Translations under genes and position numbers: made by a program
The notes under the pieces: generated by a model
The model's database searches: none
Told to the model about the DNA's origin: nothing
Seen by the model: the letters and a program-made list of their open reading frames with translations, nothing else
DNA from: a virus
Lineage: Duplodnaviria; Heunggongvirae; Uroviricota; Caudoviricetes
IMG/VR virus record: IMGVR_UViG_2648501841_000011
Coordinates: 1-7,121 of that record
Strand: one strand, 5' to 3'
Length of the DNA: 7,121 nucleotides
Shown here: positions 78-7,121 of the stretch, piece after piece
How positions within the stretch are numbered: position 1 is the stretch's first letter
Layout of the letters: every line of letters starts with the position of its first letter

Positions 78-233
78 TTACTCCTCAGGTTCGTAAGCTG
101 TGAAGACAGCGACCTCCGTCTGGCCGGTTCGGATTCGTACCTCGCAGAGGTCTTTCCTCGTTACCAGTGCCGTCACTATGACGGTTAAACAGATGACGAT
201 CAGGGCGATTAACATCGCCTTTTGCTGCTTCAT
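78..233 (-). CDS. hok: Hok/Gef-family type I toxin, 51-aa small membrane peptide (MKQQKAMLIALIVICLTVIVTALVTRKDLCEVRIRTGQTEVAVFTAYEPEE)
   Basis: ATG at 231-233 (minus) preceded by AAGGAGAAG SD; N-terminal hydrophobic helix followed by the conserved LVTRKDLCEV...GQTEVAVF core typical of Hok/Gef/RelF peptides; the flanking leader has hok-mRNA-like sequence blocks (GCUUGAGGCU-UCUGCCUC and UAGCCUCUUACGCGCC...AAGGAGAAG). From memory it is closest to HokD/RelF-type sequences, but no relBE genes lie upstream, so a specific paralogue is not assigned. Confidence 0.9.
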   Translation of the reverse strand: MKQQKAMLIALIVICLTVIVTALVTRKDLCEVRIRTGQTEVAVFTAYEPEE

Positions 234-290
234 AGCCTGCTTCTCCTTGCCTTTCGGCGCGTAAGAGGCTAACCTACATGTGTCTAGCAT
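78..290 (-). CDS. mok: mok-like reading frame: 70-codon in-frame N-terminal extension of hok (translational-coupling ORF)
   Basis: ORF track 78..290; ATG at 288-290 lies 57 nt upstream of and in frame with the hok ATG, the arrangement annotated for chromosomal mok/hok pairs. Whether it is translated is inferred, not shown. Confidence 0.45.
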   Translation of the reverse strand: MLDTCRLASYAPKGKEKQAMKQQKAMLIALIVICLTVIVTALVTRKDLCEVRIRTGQTEVAVFTAYEPEE

Positions 291-345
291 GAAATTGGCC
301 TCAGATTAATGTTAGGCGTCTTGCAGGACGCGTAATGTTAACTGG
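282..345 (+). ncRNA. sok: putative Sok-like antisense RNA overlapping the mok start and hok leader (boundaries approximate)
   Basis: Plus-strand promoter-like TTGCCT (247-252), 17-nt spacer, TAACCT (270-275) inside the mok frame, pointing antisense to the hok leader; small hairpin GCGTC-ttgcag-GACGC at 316-331. The position is that expected for Sok in hok/sok loci; ends not determinable from sequence. Confidence 0.3.
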
Positions 346-404
346 GGCTTTTCTCTATCTGCCGTTGGTGTTCATGCCCGAGGCAGATAGCCTCAAGCAC
401 CCGC

Positions 405-2391: not shown

Positions 2392-3257
2392 TCACTTTTC
2401 CGATACAACACGGCGGGAAGAATCAGTAATCTGTCGAACAATATCCCGGTGCTTGTTCAGCTCCCGCAGCGCGGCGCAGACTCGCTCCCACTTCTGAACA
2501 TCACTTTTCGCCCTGCGCAGCGCCAGGTTTGCCCTGCGAAGGGACGGAAAAATCAGCTCATCTGCTTGCGTTTCGGTAAACGATGGCAACGGCTGCACAA
2601 TGTCCGCCACAGTTTCTGTTTTAATTTCTTCCTGTGTTGCGGCTTCCCGGACTGGTAACGCAGCACCTGCTGGCTGAGGAAAGGCCTTACCATCATTTTT
2701 CGTTACCGGCGCGGCTTTCGGATCTGCTGGTAAATTACCCCCCGACATGCAGTAACGAAATTTACCGTTCTGATTAACGCGNNNNNNNNNNCTTTCCGTT
2801 ACCAGCGCGGCTTTCGGCTCTGCTGGTAAATTATCGCCCGGCATGCAGTAACGAAATTTACCGTTCTGATTAACGCGTGCCAGCCGCCCCGTTGCGGTTA
2901 CCACCGCCAGCGTGGAAGCAACCTTGCGAGTACTGACGCCGAACTTACCCGCCAGTTCCTCACACGTTTTAGCACCATCCTGACCGATAAACTCAACCAT
3001 CATGTCTGCGGTAACTTTTGGAGCGACCTCTTCGGTTACCACATCCGGCGCTTCAGGTTGTAGTGCCTGCCCTTCGGTTACCCCGGCTTCACCTTCGACA
3101 GCCAGAAACCAGGTGTGACCCGTTTTATCAACAACGCCATTTTTTTGAGTTCCCACAGTTCGTTAAGAACTTCTTCACGGCTGATATCAAGCCGCGCCGC
3201 CAGTTCAACAGAATTGGCTTTTCCCATCGCTTTCAGTGCATGCAATACAGTTTCCAT
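2392..3257 (-). CDS. phage protein with winged-helix-like N-terminus and an internal 32-aa tandem repeat; reading frame broken by a 1-nt frameshift at an A7 tract (plus-strand T7 at 3140-3146) and containing a 10-N gap (2782-2791)
   Basis: ATG at 3255-3257 (minus) with GAGGT SD encodes [39 protein letters not shown], then reaches the A7 run; that frame stops at 3078-3080 (59 codons), while the other frame (ORF track 2392..3156) continues [18 protein letters not shown]... for 249 codons. One extra A, or a -1 slip, would give about 288 aa. Position directly downstream of the dnaC-like gene. Confidence 0.6.
2686..2877. repeat. 96-bp tandem direct duplication (2 copies) inside the coding sequence; the first 10 nt of copy 2 are masked as N
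   Basis: 2697-2781 and 2793-2877 align at a 96-nt offset with a few mismatches, encoding twice the peptide [12 protein letters not shown](P/S)G(D/G)NLPA(E/D)PKAA(L/P)VT; N run at 2782-2791. Confidence 0.85.
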
Positions 3258-5014: not shown

Positions 5015-5440
5015 TTAGTGCATCACCACAGCATTCCCTGCCGGGCCGCCGCGATTCATCTGGTCATACAAAACAACCGCTGACGCAACAAAATCATCGA
5101 CATCCTTCACCAGCCGATCCCTCCGTTCGACGATCTCACGGTAATATTCAGAACTGTGGCTGCGCATACGGGCCACCAGCAAAGGCGGCATCGCCTTTTC
5201 GATCGCCGGTAACAGAGCCTGCATTTTTTCAACAGCATCAGGGGTGTCTTTATCCAGCCAACGGAAAATTTTCTGGGTATTACGGGCCAGGGCTTCCGGA
5301 TGGCTGTCGTCATACAGTTCCGGGAACGTCATTCCCAGCTCGAAATACGCTTTGGTAATTTTCGCAGCCGGTACTTTTTCGCCGTCCGGATGCGCCCAGA
5401 CATTCATCGCCATGCGGATGTGTTCATGCTTGATTTTCAT
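5015..5440 (-). CDS. ydaT: YdaT-like protein (reported from memory as a CII-like regulator partner of YdaS in Rac / CP-933P-type prophages)
   Basis: 141-aa ORF beginning MKIKHEHI...; its ATG overlaps the stop of the upstream cro-like gene (ATGA overlap at 5437-5440); position second in the early-right operon. Family assignment by recollection of YdaT sequences, not by search. Confidence 0.7.
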   Translation of the reverse strand: MKIKHEHIRMAMNVWAHPDGEKVPAAKITKAYFELGMTFPELYDDSHPEALARNTQKIFRWLDKDTPDAVEKMQALLPAIEKAMPPLLVARMRSHSSEYYREIVERRDRLVKDVDDFVASAVVLYDQMNRGGPAGNAVVMH

Positions 5441-5739
5441 GAATCAACTCCATCAGATAAGCATGCACTACAATCACCTTCAGCATGAACTACATGTGTT
5501 TGCCCCAAACGAATGCCGCTCGCATACTCAGGCCAAATAAGCTCCCAATCATGGGGTCGTAGCTCCGCCCTACTTACTTGGCCTTCCGTCGCAGATTCGA
5601 TCATAAGGGCGCGGGTTGGAGATATAGCTGTTCGTCCAGACGCCATTTGCGATAAGTAAGATGGCGATACACCAAGTCTGGCCGCGAATTTCTTAGCATC
5701 ACCAACCCTTAATGATTTAATAAACTCTTTTAATGTCAT
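5437..5739 (-). CDS. ydaS: Cro-like HTH regulator of the YdaS family
   Basis: 100-aa ORF with GAGGAAGG SD; HTH segment FAARLGVSPSYLSQMASGRTAISPTRALMIESATEGQVSRAELRPHDW matches the YdaS-type signature (LGVS...G.R.I...RA..IE.AT.G.V.R.ELRP.DW); divergent from the repressor gene. Confidence 0.85.
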   Translation of the reverse strand: MTLKEFIKSLRVGDAKKFAARLGVSPSYLSQMASGRTAISPTRALMIESATEGQVSRAELRPHDWELIWPEYASGIRLGQTHVVHAEGDCSACLSDGVDS

Positions 5740-5836
5740 ACCTTCCTCGGTTTAGTGTTTTTTTGCGAGTTTAGTGTTTAATAAACCATTAAGTCAAGTA
5801 TTTGCTTGTTTAGTGATTACTAAAGATAATTACCAC
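5740..5836. promoter_or_regulatory. divergent promoter/operator region between cro-like and cI-like genes with three GTTTAGTG(T/A)TT repeats
   Basis: GTTTAGTGTTT at 5750-5760 and 5769-5779, GTTTAGTGATT at 5808-5818 (the last within the palindrome TTTAGT-gatt-ACTAAA, 5809-5824); plus-strand TTGCTT (5802-5807), 17-nt spacer, GATAAT (5825-5830) ends 6 nt before the paaR2 ATG. Confidence 0.6.
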
Positions 5837-6208
5837 ATGCAAAAAAAAGAAATTCGCCGTTTACGTCTCAAGGAGTGGTTTAAAGATAAAACTCTGCCAC
5901 CCAAAGAGAAGAGCTACCTATCTCAACTAATGAGTGGGAGAGCCTCGTTTGGAGAAAAGGCTGCCAGAAGAATAGAGCAAACATACGGGATGCCGGAAGG
6001 GTATCTGGATGCGGAATACGCAGAACAACCGGGGGGTTCTCCACCACATGCAGGGTTAACGTCTAATCAACTGGAATTATTGCAGATTTTTTCAGCCTTC
6101 CCTGAGGATGAGCAACGCCAGATAATCAGCGAGTTAAAGCAGAAAAAAGAATCAATGGAAGATCTCATAGCGAGATGGATTGCGGCGCAAAAATGCCGCC
6201 GCGCCTGA
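5837..6208 (+). CDS. paaR2: PaaR2-like HTH transcriptional regulator in the CI-repressor position; first gene of the paaR2-paaA2-parE2 module
   Basis: 123 codons from ATG 5837; N-terminal CI/Cro-type HTH (EKSYLSQLMSGRASFGEKAARRIEQTYGMPEGYLD); the ORF track's GTG start at 5774 lies inside an operator repeat and is rejected; the -10 element abuts the ATG, suggesting a leaderless transcript. Confidence 0.8.
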   Translation: MQKKEIRRLRLKEWFKDKTLPPKEKSYLSQLMSGRASFGEKAARRIEQTYGMPEGYLDAEYAEQPGGSPPHAGLTSNQLELLQIFSAFPEDEQRQIISELKQKKESMEDLIARWIAAQKCRRA

Positions 6209-6228
6209 GTTATAAAACCGGAGGAAAC

Positions 6229-6420
6229 ATGAATAGAGCCCTTTCACCAATGGTTTCTGAATTTGAAACCATTGAACAAGAAAACAGTTACAACGAATGG
6301 CTGCGTGCGAAAGTAGCAACGAGCCTTGCAGATCCGCGCCCAGCAATTCCCCATGACGAAGTTGAGCGCAGAATGGCAGAACGCTTTGCTAAGATGCGCA
6401 AGGAACGGAGCAAGCAGTAA
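6229..6420 (+). CDS. paaA2: PaaA2 antitoxin (63 aa), partner of ParE2
   Basis: ATG at 6229 with GGAGG SD 5 nt upstream; peptide MNRALSPMVSEFETIEQENSYNEWLRAKV... recognised from memory as PaaA2; its stop (6418-6420) is 1 nt from the parE2 ATG. The ORF track's upstream ATG at 6175 lies inside paaR2 and is rejected. Confidence 0.8.
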   Translation: MNRALSPMVSEFETIEQENSYNEWLRAKVATSLADPRPAIPHDEVERRMAERFAKMRKERSKQ

Positions 6421-6421
6421 A

Positions 6422-6700
6422 ATGTTACCCGTGTTATGGCTTGAAAGCGCAGATACCGACCTAGATGATATAACTAGTTATATTGCTCGTTTCGACATAG
6501 ATGCGGCTGAACGCTTATGACAGCGATTAAGGGGTTGTGTGCTGCCGTTATCCGAACATCCGTATTTATACCCACCAAGCGACAGAGTACCTGGCTTGCG
6601 TGAGATTGTAGCCCACCCTAACTATATAATTCTATACCGCGTAACAACATCAAGCGTTGAAGTAGTAAACGTGATCCACGCAAGACGCCAGTTTCCCTAA
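6422..6700 (+). pseudogene. parE2: parE2 (ParE/RelE-superfamily toxin) interrupted by an in-frame TGA at codon 33 (6518-6520)
   Basis: ATG 6422; N-terminal 32 codons MLPVLWLESADTDLDDITSYIARFDIDAAERL, then TGA; the same frame continues without a stop as QRLRGCVLPLSEHPYLYPPSDRVPGLREIVAHPNYIILYRVTTSSVEVVNVIHARRQFP to TAA at 6698-6700. Both halves have ParE-like character; 279 nt in total would give a 92-aa toxin if the TGA were a sense codon (TGG is one transition away). Confidence 0.7.
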
Positions 6701-6718
6701 CTTTCACTACCAATAGAA

Positions 6719-6765
6719 ACATAACAACCGCAACGACTTTATCAAAAGCGTTGTGTTTGTTATGT
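6719..6765. other. long inverted repeat / hairpin downstream of parE2 (ACATAACAA ... TTGTTATGT arms with nested CAACG/CGTTG)
   Basis: Perfect 9-bp arms at 6719-6727 and 6757-6765 with an internal sub-palindrome; begins about 19 nt after the parE2 stop; no clear U-tract, so terminator function is uncertain. Confidence 0.4.
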
Positions 6766-6771
6766 CCCGCG

Positions 6772-6812
6772 GTTTAGTTTTTACTTGACTTAAGTTTAAT
6801 GTTTATTAAACT
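6772..6812 (+). promoter_or_regulatory. putative rightward (PL-like) promoter with a fourth operator-like motif: GTTTAGTTTTT (6772-6782), -35 TTGACT (6784-6789), -10-like TAAACT about 16-17 nt downstream
   Basis: One-mismatch copy of the intergenic operator motif immediately upstream of, and overlapping, a sigma70-like hexamer pair on the plus strand. Confidence 0.35.
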
Positions 6813-7121
6813 AAAAATACCAACCCACCCCGCCCCACAGAACGCAGGGAAATACTTCGAGTTACCCGGCAGTGGTCAGGGGTTAAGTAGCCAGCCCGAG
6901 GCGTATGAACATGACGGCAGGGTTCAACTTTAATAACTATGCAGCAGGTTTTTGTTCCGCTACCCCGGCGTTAAGGGGAAACAGAGGGTTTCTCAGTGGG
7001 CGAAGTCAAACATCAGAATGGAAGGCATCCCGGGATCGGCAAAGAAGCAGCAATGGCGCTTTATATTGACATCAGCGCCATTGCAGGACAGGTAAGAGTT
7101 ATCAGAGCGGTAACTAAGCGG

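What the first reader, a model, noticed from the sequence alone, without database searches (positions are those of the whole stretch)
5802..5839. The repressor gene appears to be transcribed as a leaderless mRNA from a promoter with an operator in its spacer
TTGCTT (5802-5807), a 17-nt spacer that is itself the third operator repeat, and GATAAT (5825-5830) end only 6 nt before the paaR2 ATG at 5837, and there is no Shine-Dalgarno sequence. This mirrors the leaderless cI transcript from lambda PRM and implies direct autoregulation. It also argues against the longer GTG-initiated frame (5774) suggested by the ORF track.
Basis: inference. Interest (0 to 1): 0.4.

Follow-up and report, generated by a model that had tools for sequence, protein, structure and literature searches.

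The report
Leaderless paaR2 repressor promoter (known)
The prophage repressor gene paaR2 of E. coli O157:H7 is indeed made from an mRNA that begins exactly at its start codon, from a weak promoter with a repressor-binding site between its two hexamers, but this was shown experimentally and published in 2021.

Summary
There is no Shine-Dalgarno sequence. The window is the immunity region of cryptic prophage CP-933P/Sp12 of E. coli O157:H7. Jurenas et al. [quoted passage not shown] They mapped the start by 5' RACE to the A of this ATG and sequenced the N-terminus as MQKKE. They measured a mass of 15,081 Da, footprinted PaaR2 over the promoter, and showed autoregulation with reporters.

My independent checks agree:
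- The geometry is identical to lambda PRM, read directly from the lambda genome.
- It is the only one of 272 ATGs in the window with this arrangement.
- About 36-40 of 61 relatives from other species keep -35/operator/-10/6 nt/ATG, while the 6 nt vary and the GTG at 5774 is not conserved.
- Twelve relatives, nearly all Pasteurellaceae or Orbaceae, instead have a short leader with a canonical Shine-Dalgarno sequence.

Verdict: real, well supported, already known. Interest is low.

The parts
5802..5807 (+). -35 hexamer TTGCTT of PRM933P (3/6 match to TTGACA)
   Evidence: Sequence. TTGCTT in 20 and TTGATT in 4 of 24 aligned loci (the window plus 23 relatives).
5808..5825 (.). Operator palindrome GTTTAGTGA/TTACTAAAG (IR1 of Jurenas et al.). 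It fills the whole 17-nt spacer plus the first base of the -10 and is centred at about -20.5 from +1.
   Evidence: Repeat family D2 and inverted repeat I2. The published DNase I footprint and IR1 description. The exact coordinates are my mapping of the published description onto the window. Conserved as GTTTAG-N-ACTAA in relatives.
5825..5830 (+). -10 hexamer GATAAT of PRM933P (5/6)
   Evidence: Sequence. The aligned hexamer is CAAAAT or CACAAT in 20 of 24 aligned loci.
5831..5836 (+). 6-nt discriminator TACCAC between the -10 and +1. It is not transcribed and contains no Shine-Dalgarno sequence.
   Evidence: Sequence. This is the least conserved block of the alignment (mean majority frequency 0.51, against 0.94-1.0 for the flanking blocks).
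5837..5839 (+). Transcription start (+1 = A5837) and paaR2 ATG start codon
   Evidence: 5' RACE and N-terminal MQKKE. Primer F-1-PaaR2 maps at 5837. ATG is invariant in 24/24 aligned loci.
5837..6208 (+). paaR2 coding sequence, 123 aa (CI-like repressor without an S24 peptidase domain)
   Evidence: PGAP annotation WP_001169686.1. PDB entries 7nkv, 8c3k and 8c3l begin at MQKKE. Homologues start at the equivalent Met.
5774..5836 (+). Spurious 21-codon N-terminal extension from GTG 5774. The GTG is part of operator IR3, and the frame runs through both promoters.
   Evidence: ORF list. GTG is kept in only 2 of 24 aligned loci. Many relatives have in-frame stops within 0-8 codons upstream of the ATG. 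The mass does not fit.
5769..5786 (.). Operator palindrome GTTTAGTGT/TTAATAAAC (IR3), overlapping the spacer and -10 of the divergent PR933P
   Evidence: Consensus GTTTATTAAACACTAAAC in relatives. Coordinates are my mapping.
5750..5767 (.). Half-conserved repeat (IR4): GTTTAGTGT plus a degenerate second half, over the expected ydaS transcription start
   Evidence: Coordinates are my inference from the 19-20-bp spacing.
5788..5805 (.). Degenerate repeat (IR2), centred at about -40.5 from the PRM933P +1, the position of lambda OR2 relative to PRM
   Evidence: [quoted passage not shown] Weak: 6/9 match of one half-site, by eye.
5768..5797 (-). Divergent PR933P promoter for ydaS-ydaT: -35 TTGACT (5797-5792), 18-nt spacer, -10 TAAACT (5773-5768)
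   Evidence: Promoter scan. Both hexamers are conserved in relatives. PR933P is active and its start site was mapped by 5' RACE in the paper.
5437..5739 (-). ydaS (Cro analogue), 97 bp from paaR2
   Evidence: The 97-bp spacing matches the paper.
6229..6700 (+). paaA2 (6229-6420) and parE2 (6422-6700), co-transcribed with paaR2 from PRM933P
   Evidence: Annotation. Operon described in PMC8630535.

Best explanation
Positions 5802-5839 are PRM933P, the maintenance promoter of cryptic lambdoid prophage CP-933P/Sp12, together with the start of its repressor gene paaR2. RNA polymerase with sigma-70 uses a weak -35 (TTGCTT) and a good -10 (GATAAT) separated by 17 nt. It starts at the A of the ATG, 7 nt past the -10, so the paaR2-paaA2-parE2 mRNA has no 5' untranslated region and no Shine-Dalgarno sequence. 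It is translated from its 5'-terminal AUG, as lambda cI mRNA from PRM is. The spacer is an 18-bp PaaR2/YdaS operator (IR1, 5808-5825). When this site is occupied at high repressor level, polymerase is excluded, giving negative autoregulation. The Cro analogue YdaS uses the same sites to shut the promoter off. Occupancy of upstream sites at low PaaR2 level seems to stimulate the promoter. Shown experimentally in the literature: the start site, the N-terminus and mass, the footprint, and repression by PaaR2 and YdaS. Inferred: which individual site does what, 70S-type initiation, and activation through the site centred near -40.
For: Identity of the locus: 100% identity to E. coli O157:H7 chromosomes over 5600-6450. 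The paper's primers map exactly onto the window. Published experiments (PMC8630535): the 5' RACE start equals the translation start; the N-terminus is MQKKE; the mass is 15,081 Da; the PaaR2 footprint covers about 78 bp, with IR1 over PRM933P; PRM933P-gfp is repressed by PaaR2 and by YdaS. The reporter fragment is 5764-5837, so the promoter lies inside it. My checks: geometry exact and unique among 272 ATGs. The computed mass of the ATG-5837 product plus His6 is 15,081.0 Da. PGAP and the PDB constructs use this start. Lambda PRM has the same layout of 17-nt spacer, 6 nt and ATG, with OR3 in the spacer. The first 35 nt of the mRNA are predicted unpaired. Comparative evidence: 36 of 62 loci (the window plus 61 relatives, one genome per species) have a -10-like hexamer 5-7 nt before the ATG, against 11 of 162 control ORFs in the same loci. 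In a 24-sequence alignment the -35, operator, -10 and ATG are 83-100% conserved, while the 6 nt between them are not.
Against: The -35 hexamer is poor (3/6), and a consensus scan misses the promoter. The N-terminal sequencing and mass spectrometry used a construct that already begins at +1, so they prove that the leaderless mRNA is translatable rather than proving native usage. The native-promoter evidence is five sequenced 5' RACE clones and a Western band of similar size. A second, YdaT-activated promoter (PRE933P, within 5412-5531) should yield a leadered paaR2 transcript whose translation start has not been examined. Individual operator assignments remain undetermined; the authors say so themselves.
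Confidence: 0.93

Rival explanations
1. PaaR2 is translated from GTG 5774 as a 144-aa protein, from a transcript that starts upstream, and the promoter-like hexamers are coincidental.
For: The GTG-initiated frame is open. Automatic gene callers on some assemblies report 144- and 150-aa versions (P0001 and P0002). A weak GAG lies 4 nt upstream of the GTG.
Against: The 5' RACE start is at 5837, so the GTG is not on the PRM transcript. The protein made from the native-promoter construct, which includes 5740-5836, has a similar size to the +1 construct. GTG is retained in only 2 of 24 aligned loci, and many relatives have in-frame stops just upstream of the ATG. The GTG lies inside the operator half-site GTTTAGTG, which explains its presence. 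Homologues from many genera start at the equivalent Met.
Confidence: 0.03
2. Both modes coexist. As well as the leaderless PRM933P mRNA, read-through from the YdaT-activated PRE933P gives a long-leadered paaR2 mRNA. This is translated from the same internal ATG without a Shine-Dalgarno sequence or, rarely, from GTG 5774. It would parallel lambda PRE and matter during establishment.
For: PRE933P (fragment 5412-5531, + strand) becomes active when YdaT is expressed and is described as an alternative start for the operon. It points toward paaR2, and the scan found no + strand terminator between it and paaR2.
Against: No experiment has followed the PRE933P transcript into paaR2 or measured its translation. 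There is no Shine-Dalgarno-like sequence within 18 nt of ATG 5837, so internal initiation should be poor. This idea complements the main explanation rather than contradicting it.
Confidence: 0.3
3. The hexamers and spacing are a chance match in AT-rich intergenic DNA and carry no promoter function.
For: AT-rich regions produce many -10-like hexamers. The -35 matches at only 3/6. The generic scan finds about as many promoter-like sites as in shuffled sequence.
Against: The 74-bp fragment 5764-5837 drives gfp. The RACE start lies exactly 7 nt from the -10. The hexamers, spacing and distance to the ATG are conserved in prophages of many genera, while the 6 intervening nt vary. Only 1 of 272 ATGs in the window shows this geometry.
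Confidence: 0.01

Closest known systems
PRM933P / paaR2 of prophage CP-933P (Jurenas et al., mBio 2021, PMC8630535)
   Same: It is the same locus. The sequence is identical to O157:H7 genomes, the 97-bp intergenic region matches, and the paper's primers map at the expected coordinates. The published conclusions are the same as the finding: leaderless paaR2, an operator over the promoter, and autoregulation.
   Different: Nothing in the finding goes beyond the paper.
Bacteriophage lambda PRM / cI leaderless mRNA with OR3
   Same: Read directly from NC_001416: a weak -35 (TAGATA), a 17-nt spacer, the -10 TAGATT, 6 nt, then ATG as +1. OR3 covers the spacer and the edge of the -10 (centre -19, against -20.5 here), and OR2 is centred at -42 (against about -40.5 for IR2). 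It is divergent from PR/cro, with an A-rich coding start (ATGAGCACAAAAAAG against ATGCAAAAAAAAG). Leaderless cI translation is well documented (for example PMC10491246).
   Different: The operator sequences are unrelated. The published description has four 18-bp repeats spaced 19-20 bp apart (spacing from my mapping), not three 17-bp sites. PaaR2 has no S24 autocleavage domain and is not SOS-inducible. The operon continues into a toxin-antitoxin pair instead of rexAB. PaaR2 matches no Pfam family in the precomputed hits.
S24-peptidase (LexA/CI-type) prophage repressors of Yersinia, Proteus, Erwinia, Serratia, Brenneria and Burkholderiales that share the PaaR2 N-terminal domain
   Same: They are 56-80% identical to PaaR2 over the first 52-87 residues matched (about 42-74% of the query). 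They have the same upstream cassette: GTTTA-N8-TAAAC operator, TTGAC(N) for PR, TTGCTT, operator-filled 17-nt spacer, CA(A/C)AAT, 6 nt, ATG.
   Different: They are 206-252 aa long and carry a C-terminal PF00717 peptidase domain, which PaaR2 replaces with a short helical C-terminal region. None is experimentally characterised as far as I could find. Leaderless expression in them is inferred from geometry only.

Membership tests
Leaderless (5'-terminal AUG) bacterial mRNA | The transcription start coincides with the first base of the start codon | tested here: met
   Sequence geometry: the -10 ends at 5830 and A5837 is 7 nt downstream. Experimentally, 5' RACE in PMC8630535, with the +1 primer mapping at 5837. 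No wet-lab test is possible with these tools, so the experimental part is taken from the paper.
Leaderless (5'-terminal AUG) bacterial mRNA | No 5' UTR or Shine-Dalgarno sequence; the start codon is AUG rather than GUG or UUG | tested here: met
   No GGAG, GAGG, AGGA or AAGG in -18 to -4. The start is ATG here and in 24/24 aligned loci.
Leaderless (5'-terminal AUG) bacterial mRNA | The protein N-terminus corresponds to the 5'-terminal AUG | tested here: met
   Published N-terminus MQKKE and mass of 15,081 Da. Computed mass of 15,081.0 Da for the ATG-5837 product plus His6, against 17,531.9 Da for the GTG-5774 product.
Leaderless (5'-terminal AUG) bacterial mRNA | Initiation by 70S ribosomes, independent of the Shine-Dalgarno/anti-Shine-Dalgarno pairing | not testable with these tools
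   Assumed by analogy with lambda cI (cites that literature). No toeprinting or in vitro translation has been reported for paaR2.
Lambda PRM-type autoregulated maintenance promoter | Back-to-back with a divergent lytic promoter (PR) that drives a Cro-like gene, sharing one operator region | tested here: met
   The PR-like site TTGACT-18-TAAACT lies on the minus strand at 5797-5768, with 4 bp between the two -35 hexamers. ydaS is at 5739-5437. The arrangement is conserved in relatives.
Lambda PRM-type autoregulated maintenance promoter | A repressor operator overlaps the core promoter, giving negative autoregulation (the OR3 role) | tested here: met
   The palindrome 5808-5825 fills the spacer. 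Published footprint and reporter repression. The placement is the same as lambda OR3.
Lambda PRM-type autoregulated maintenance promoter | Positive autoregulation from an operator centred near -42 (the OR2 role) | tested here: inconclusive
   A degenerate repeat (IR2, about 5788-5805) is centred near -40.5, by inference. The paper saw about 4-fold higher PRM933P activity with leaky PaaR2 expression but did not assign a site.
LexA/CI S24 autocleaving repressors | A C-terminal S24 peptidase domain (PF00717) that mediates RecA-stimulated self-cleavage | tested here: not met
   PaaR2 is 123 aa with no Pfam hit, whereas relatives of 208-215 aa that share its N-terminal domain carry PF00717. The paper also notes the missing peptidase motif and the lack of response to mitomycin C. 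PaaR2 works like CI at the promoter but is not a member of the S24 class.

The most novel reading that the evidence does not exclude
The leaderless PRM/operator cassette is not peculiar to CP-933P. It is an ancient, mobile regulatory module. The same TTGCTT/operator-filled 17-nt spacer/-10/6 nt/ATG unit and the same operator sequence precede PaaR2-type and S24-type (true CI-like) repressors in prophages of Enterobacterales, Burkholderiales, Nitrosomonas and Tepidimonas. Relatives in Pasteurellaceae and Orbaceae keep the promoter and operator but have gained a 19-27-nt leader with a canonical Shine-Dalgarno sequence. If the inferred leaderless starts are real, this would be a natural series for asking why maintenance repressors are kept leaderless and which hosts tolerate that. 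It would also suggest that PaaR2 arose from a CI-type repressor by C-terminal domain replacement. I found no mention of this conservation in the papers I read, but I did not search for it exhaustively.
Probability: 0.55. Interest if true: 0.3.

Novelty: already known. Interest (0 to 1): 0.12.

Why it matters
For this locus the question is settled. PaaR2 is one of the few experimentally proven leaderless genes in E. coli, and its promoter layout copies lambda PRM. This supports the view that the paaR2-paaA2-parE2 'three-component toxin-antitoxin system' is really a prophage immunity switch carrying a toxin-antitoxin passenger. For annotation, the practical value is that the 144-aa GTG-initiated ORF produced by mechanical ORF calling, and by some automatic gene callers, is wrong. 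The 123-aa ATG product is right. The only part with some forward value is the comparative pattern noted here: a conserved leaderless cassette across many prophage repressors, with Shine-Dalgarno-led variants in two bacterial families. That could guide start-codon annotation for this repressor family and offers test cases for leaderless translation.

Tried and rejected
- **Generic sigma-70 scan.** It did not list the + strand promoter because the -35 matches at only 3/6. I rejected this as evidence against the promoter, given the RACE data and the conservation. The scan did find the divergent PR933P.
- **Rfam scan of the whole window.** It found only sok (228-402, minus strand). There is no RNA family at the paaR2 5' end.
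- **Fold of the first 60 nt of the mRNA.** The fold is no more stable than shuffled sequence (z = +1.5) and the 5' 35 nt are unpaired. This is consistent with an accessible 5' AUG but is not discriminating.
- **Supplementary Table S1 of the paper.** This is the promoter hexamer table, but only its caption is held as text. I could not confirm that the authors boxed exactly TTGCTT and GATAAT. The +1 position, the reporter fragment ends and the primers fix the promoter to 5764-5837.
- **Phage collection search with PaaR2.** There were only 5 hits (Escherichia phage Evi at 98%, two Klebsiella and two Burkholderia phages), and none is a characterised model phage.
- **GTG-5774 extension as a real N-terminus.** I considered this because the Photorhabdus protein P0050 has a similar-looking extension (MFACLVNTNQNY). 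I rejected it: the similarity is the translated image of the conserved promoter and operator DNA (TTTGCTTGTTTAGT...), not protein conservation.
- **Start-finding script.** It failed for L013 (an apparent frameshift in an A-run) and L064, so these two were left out of the counts.

Full report
**What is in the sequence.**
- Reading 5740-5851 directly and slicing it by script gives TTGCTT at 5802-5807, GTTTAGTGATTACTAAA (17 nt) at 5808-5824, and GATAAT at 5825-5830.
- TACCAC follows at 5831-5836, and the ATG is at 5837-5839. All coordinates in the finding are exact.
- The -10 is a 5/6 match to TATAAT. The -35 is only a 3/6 match to TTGACA, which is why the generic promoter scan does not report it.
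- With 6 nt between the -10 and the ATG, the A of the ATG sits at the canonical start position, 7 nt past the -10.
- No Shine-Dalgarno-like tetramer lies in the 18 nt upstream.
- Of 272 ATG triplets on both strands of the window, this is the only one preceded by TTG, a 17-nt spacer, a -10 of at least 5/6, and then 6 nt.
- The spacer holds the third copy of GTTTAGTG(T/A)TT; the others start at 5750 and 5769.
- The three exact GTTTAGTG copies in the window all fall within 5750-5815.
- The copy at 5808 is half of an 18-bp imperfect palindrome, GTTTAGTGA/TTACTAAAG (5808-5825).

**Where the window comes from.**
- The segment 5600-6450 is 100% identical to many E. coli O157:H7 chromosomes.
- RefSeq annotates, in order: a YdaT-family gene, a transcriptional regulator (ydaS), a 123-aa hypothetical protein at exactly 5837-6208, a RelB-family antitoxin (paaA2), and a ParE-family toxin (parE2).
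- This is the immunity region of cryptic lambdoid prophage CP-933P (Sp12 in the Sakai strain).

**It is already published.**
- They describe the same 97-bp paaR2-ydaS intergenic region. In the window, 5837 - 5739 - 1 = 97.
- They predicted PRM933P and PR933P and mapped both starts by 5' RACE in EDL933. [quoted passage not shown]
- They placed paaR2-His at the +1 of ParaBAD. The product had N-terminus MQKKE and an intact mass of 15,081 Da.
- The protein made from the native promoter had a similar size.
- Their primer built to begin at the RACE-determined +1 (F-1-PaaR2) maps at window position 5837.
- Their native-promoter construct starts at 5740, so it includes GTG 5774.
- Their PRM933P reporter fragment is 5764-5837.
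- I computed 15,081.0 Da for the ATG-5837 product plus His6, against 17,531.9 Da for the GTG-5774 product.
- The crystallised PaaR2 N-terminal domains (7nkv, 8c3k, 8c3l) also begin at MQKKE.

**Operators and autoregulation.**
- The paper reports that PaaR2 protects about 78 bp of the intergenic region and YdaS about 65 bp. Both footprints overlap both promoters.
- It describes four equally spaced 18-bp inverted repeats with half-site consensus GTTTAGTAA. IR1 lies over PRM933P and IR3 over PR933P. There are also three pseudo-symmetric 'operators'.
- I map these onto the window as IR1 = 5808-5825, IR2 about 5788-5805, IR3 = 5769-5786 and IR4 = 5750-5767, at 19-20-bp spacing. This mapping is my inference from the text and the sequence.
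- PaaR2 and YdaS each repress PRM933P-gfp and PR933P-gfp, by up to 45-fold.
- Leaky PaaR2 expression raises PRM933P activity about 4-fold, which hints at positive autoregulation at low concentration.
The published picture is richer, with four repeats, two proteins competing for them, and possible activation.

**Direct comparison with lambda.**
- I read lambda 37850-38100. PRM is TAGATA, a 17-nt spacer, TAGATT, taacgt (6 nt), then the cI ATG.
- The annotated OR3 spans 15 nt of the spacer plus 2 nt of the -10, centred at -19. OR2 is centred at -42.
- In CP-933P, IR1 spans the whole spacer plus 1 nt of the -10, centred at -20.5. IR2 is centred near -40.5.
- The geometry is the same to within 1-2 bp, although the operator sequences and the repressor folds' C-terminal parts differ.

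**Independent comparative test.**
- A protein search found 156 relatives. Nearly all start at the Met equivalent to M1 of the 123-aa form.
- A genome scan returned 64 loci, one per species.
- Counting the window and 61 of these loci with an identifiable start, 36 of 62 have a -10-like hexamer ending 5-7 nt before the ATG. Among 162 control ORFs in the same loci, only 11 do.
- Four more relatives have CAAACT or CAGACT at exactly 6 nt, with the operator in register.
- I aligned 24 of these sequences. The consensus is AGTTTATTAAACACTAAAC-N5-GTCAAG-TA-TTTGCTT-GTTTAGnnATTACTAAT-CAAAAT-N6-ATG.
- Block conservation (mean majority-base frequency) in that alignment:

| Block | Conservation |
|---|---|
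| -35 hexamer | 0.97 |
| Spacer / operator | 0.83 |
| -10 hexamer | 0.94 |
| ATG | 1.00 |
| 6 nt between the -10 and the ATG | 0.51 |

- That pattern is what a fixed-distance, non-coding, non-transcribed discriminator would show.
- GTG 5774 is retained in only 2 of the 24 aligned sequences.
- Many relatives have in-frame stop codons within 0-8 codons upstream of the ATG, so the extension is not a conserved coding region.
- The GTG is simply part of the operator half-site GTTTAGTG.
- Twelve relatives, nearly all Pasteurellaceae or Orbaceae/Gilliamella, keep the same promoter and operator. In them the ATG lies 19-27 nt downstream of the -10, behind AGGAG, GAGGT or GGAGG.
- So where a leader exists, a Shine-Dalgarno sequence exists. 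Where the ATG is 6 nt from the -10, none does.

**Residual uncertainties.**
- The N-terminal sequencing and mass come from the engineered +1 construct. Native usage rests on RACE (five clones) and a Western band.
- The YdaT-activated PRE933P (fragment 5412-5531) should produce a leadered paaR2 transcript. Its translation has not been studied. No Shine-Dalgarno sequence precedes ATG 5837 on such a transcript.
- Which repeat mediates repression and which mediates activation is not resolved.
- The mRNA 5' end is predicted to be unstructured. This is compatible with leaderless initiation but proves nothing.

**Verdict.**
- Novelty: already known. The feature is the published PRM933P/paaR2 leaderless arrangement. 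Interest is low (0.12).
- The only element that may go beyond the literature I read is the breadth of conservation of the leaderless cassette.
- That conservation extends to S24-type CI-like repressors that share the PaaR2 DNA-binding domain, and there are Shine-Dalgarno-led variants in two families.

Noticed in passing
Loci L010-L063 (about 1400-1515 in each); window 5769-5839: The whole PR/PRM/operator cassette, not just the protein, is conserved at the DNA level in prophages of Enterobacterales, Burkholderiales (Pandoraea, Massilia, Mycoavidus, Glomeribacter), Nitrosomonas and Tepidimonas. It precedes both short PaaR2-like repressors and S24-peptidase repressors of 206-252 aa that share the N-terminal domain. 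This implies one operator specificity spread over a very wide host range, and a C-terminal domain swap in the history of PaaR2.
   Followed up: partly
L032, L037, L040, L049, L055, L056, L058-L060 (upstream of position 1501): Relatives in Pasteurellaceae and Orbaceae/Gilliamella keep TTGCT(T/A)-17 nt (operator)-TA(A/G/T)(A/C)AT, but they have a 19-27-nt gap to the ATG that contains AGGAG, GAGGT or GGAGG. They are Shine-Dalgarno-led versions of the same promoter.
   Followed up: partly
L002-L009, L016, L017: Short PaaR-like genes of Photorhabdus and Xenorhabdus have the operator and promoter block about 50 nt upstream of the ATG. There is at most a weak Shine-Dalgarno sequence (AGGT or GGAG), so this is a third arrangement.
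   Followed up: no
window 6770-6818: There is a second cluster of the same operator motifs (GGTTTAGTTTTTACTTGAC..TTAAGTTTAATGTTTATTAAACTAAAAAT) downstream of parE2. It lies within the fragment the paper calls PL933P (primers map at 6701-6818).
   Followed up: partly
window 5758-5766 and 5839-5847; 5841-5848: A perfect 9-nt inverted repeat, TTTTTTTGC / GCAAAAAAA, flanks the two promoters (I3). As a result, both divergent transcripts carry GCAAAAAAA near their 5' ends. The paaR2 copy is an A8 run in codons 2-4. A Morganella relative (L013) appears frameshifted in the equivalent A-run. The significance is unknown.
   Followed up: no
window 2782-2791: A run of 10 N lies inside the 254-aa minus-strand ORF (2392-3156), between two near-identical copies of [12 protein letters not shown](P/S)G(D/G)NLPA(E/D)PKAA. 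It is probably an assembly gap or mask in a tandem duplication.
   Followed up: no
window 78-402, minus strand: A hok/sok-type module: Rfam sok (RF01794, 112.6 bits) at 228-402, overlapping the 5' part of a Hok-like ORF at 78-290.
   Followed up: no
window 5708-5728 and 5773-5793: A 21-nt inverted repeat, 86% complementary (CTTAATGATTTAATAAACTCT / AGTGTTTAATAAACCATTAAG), links the first codons of ydaS with the IR3/PR region (I1). TTTAATAAAC also occurs as a direct repeat at 5716 and 5777. This may be an extra operator-like half-site inside ydaS. I did not examine it.
   Followed up: no
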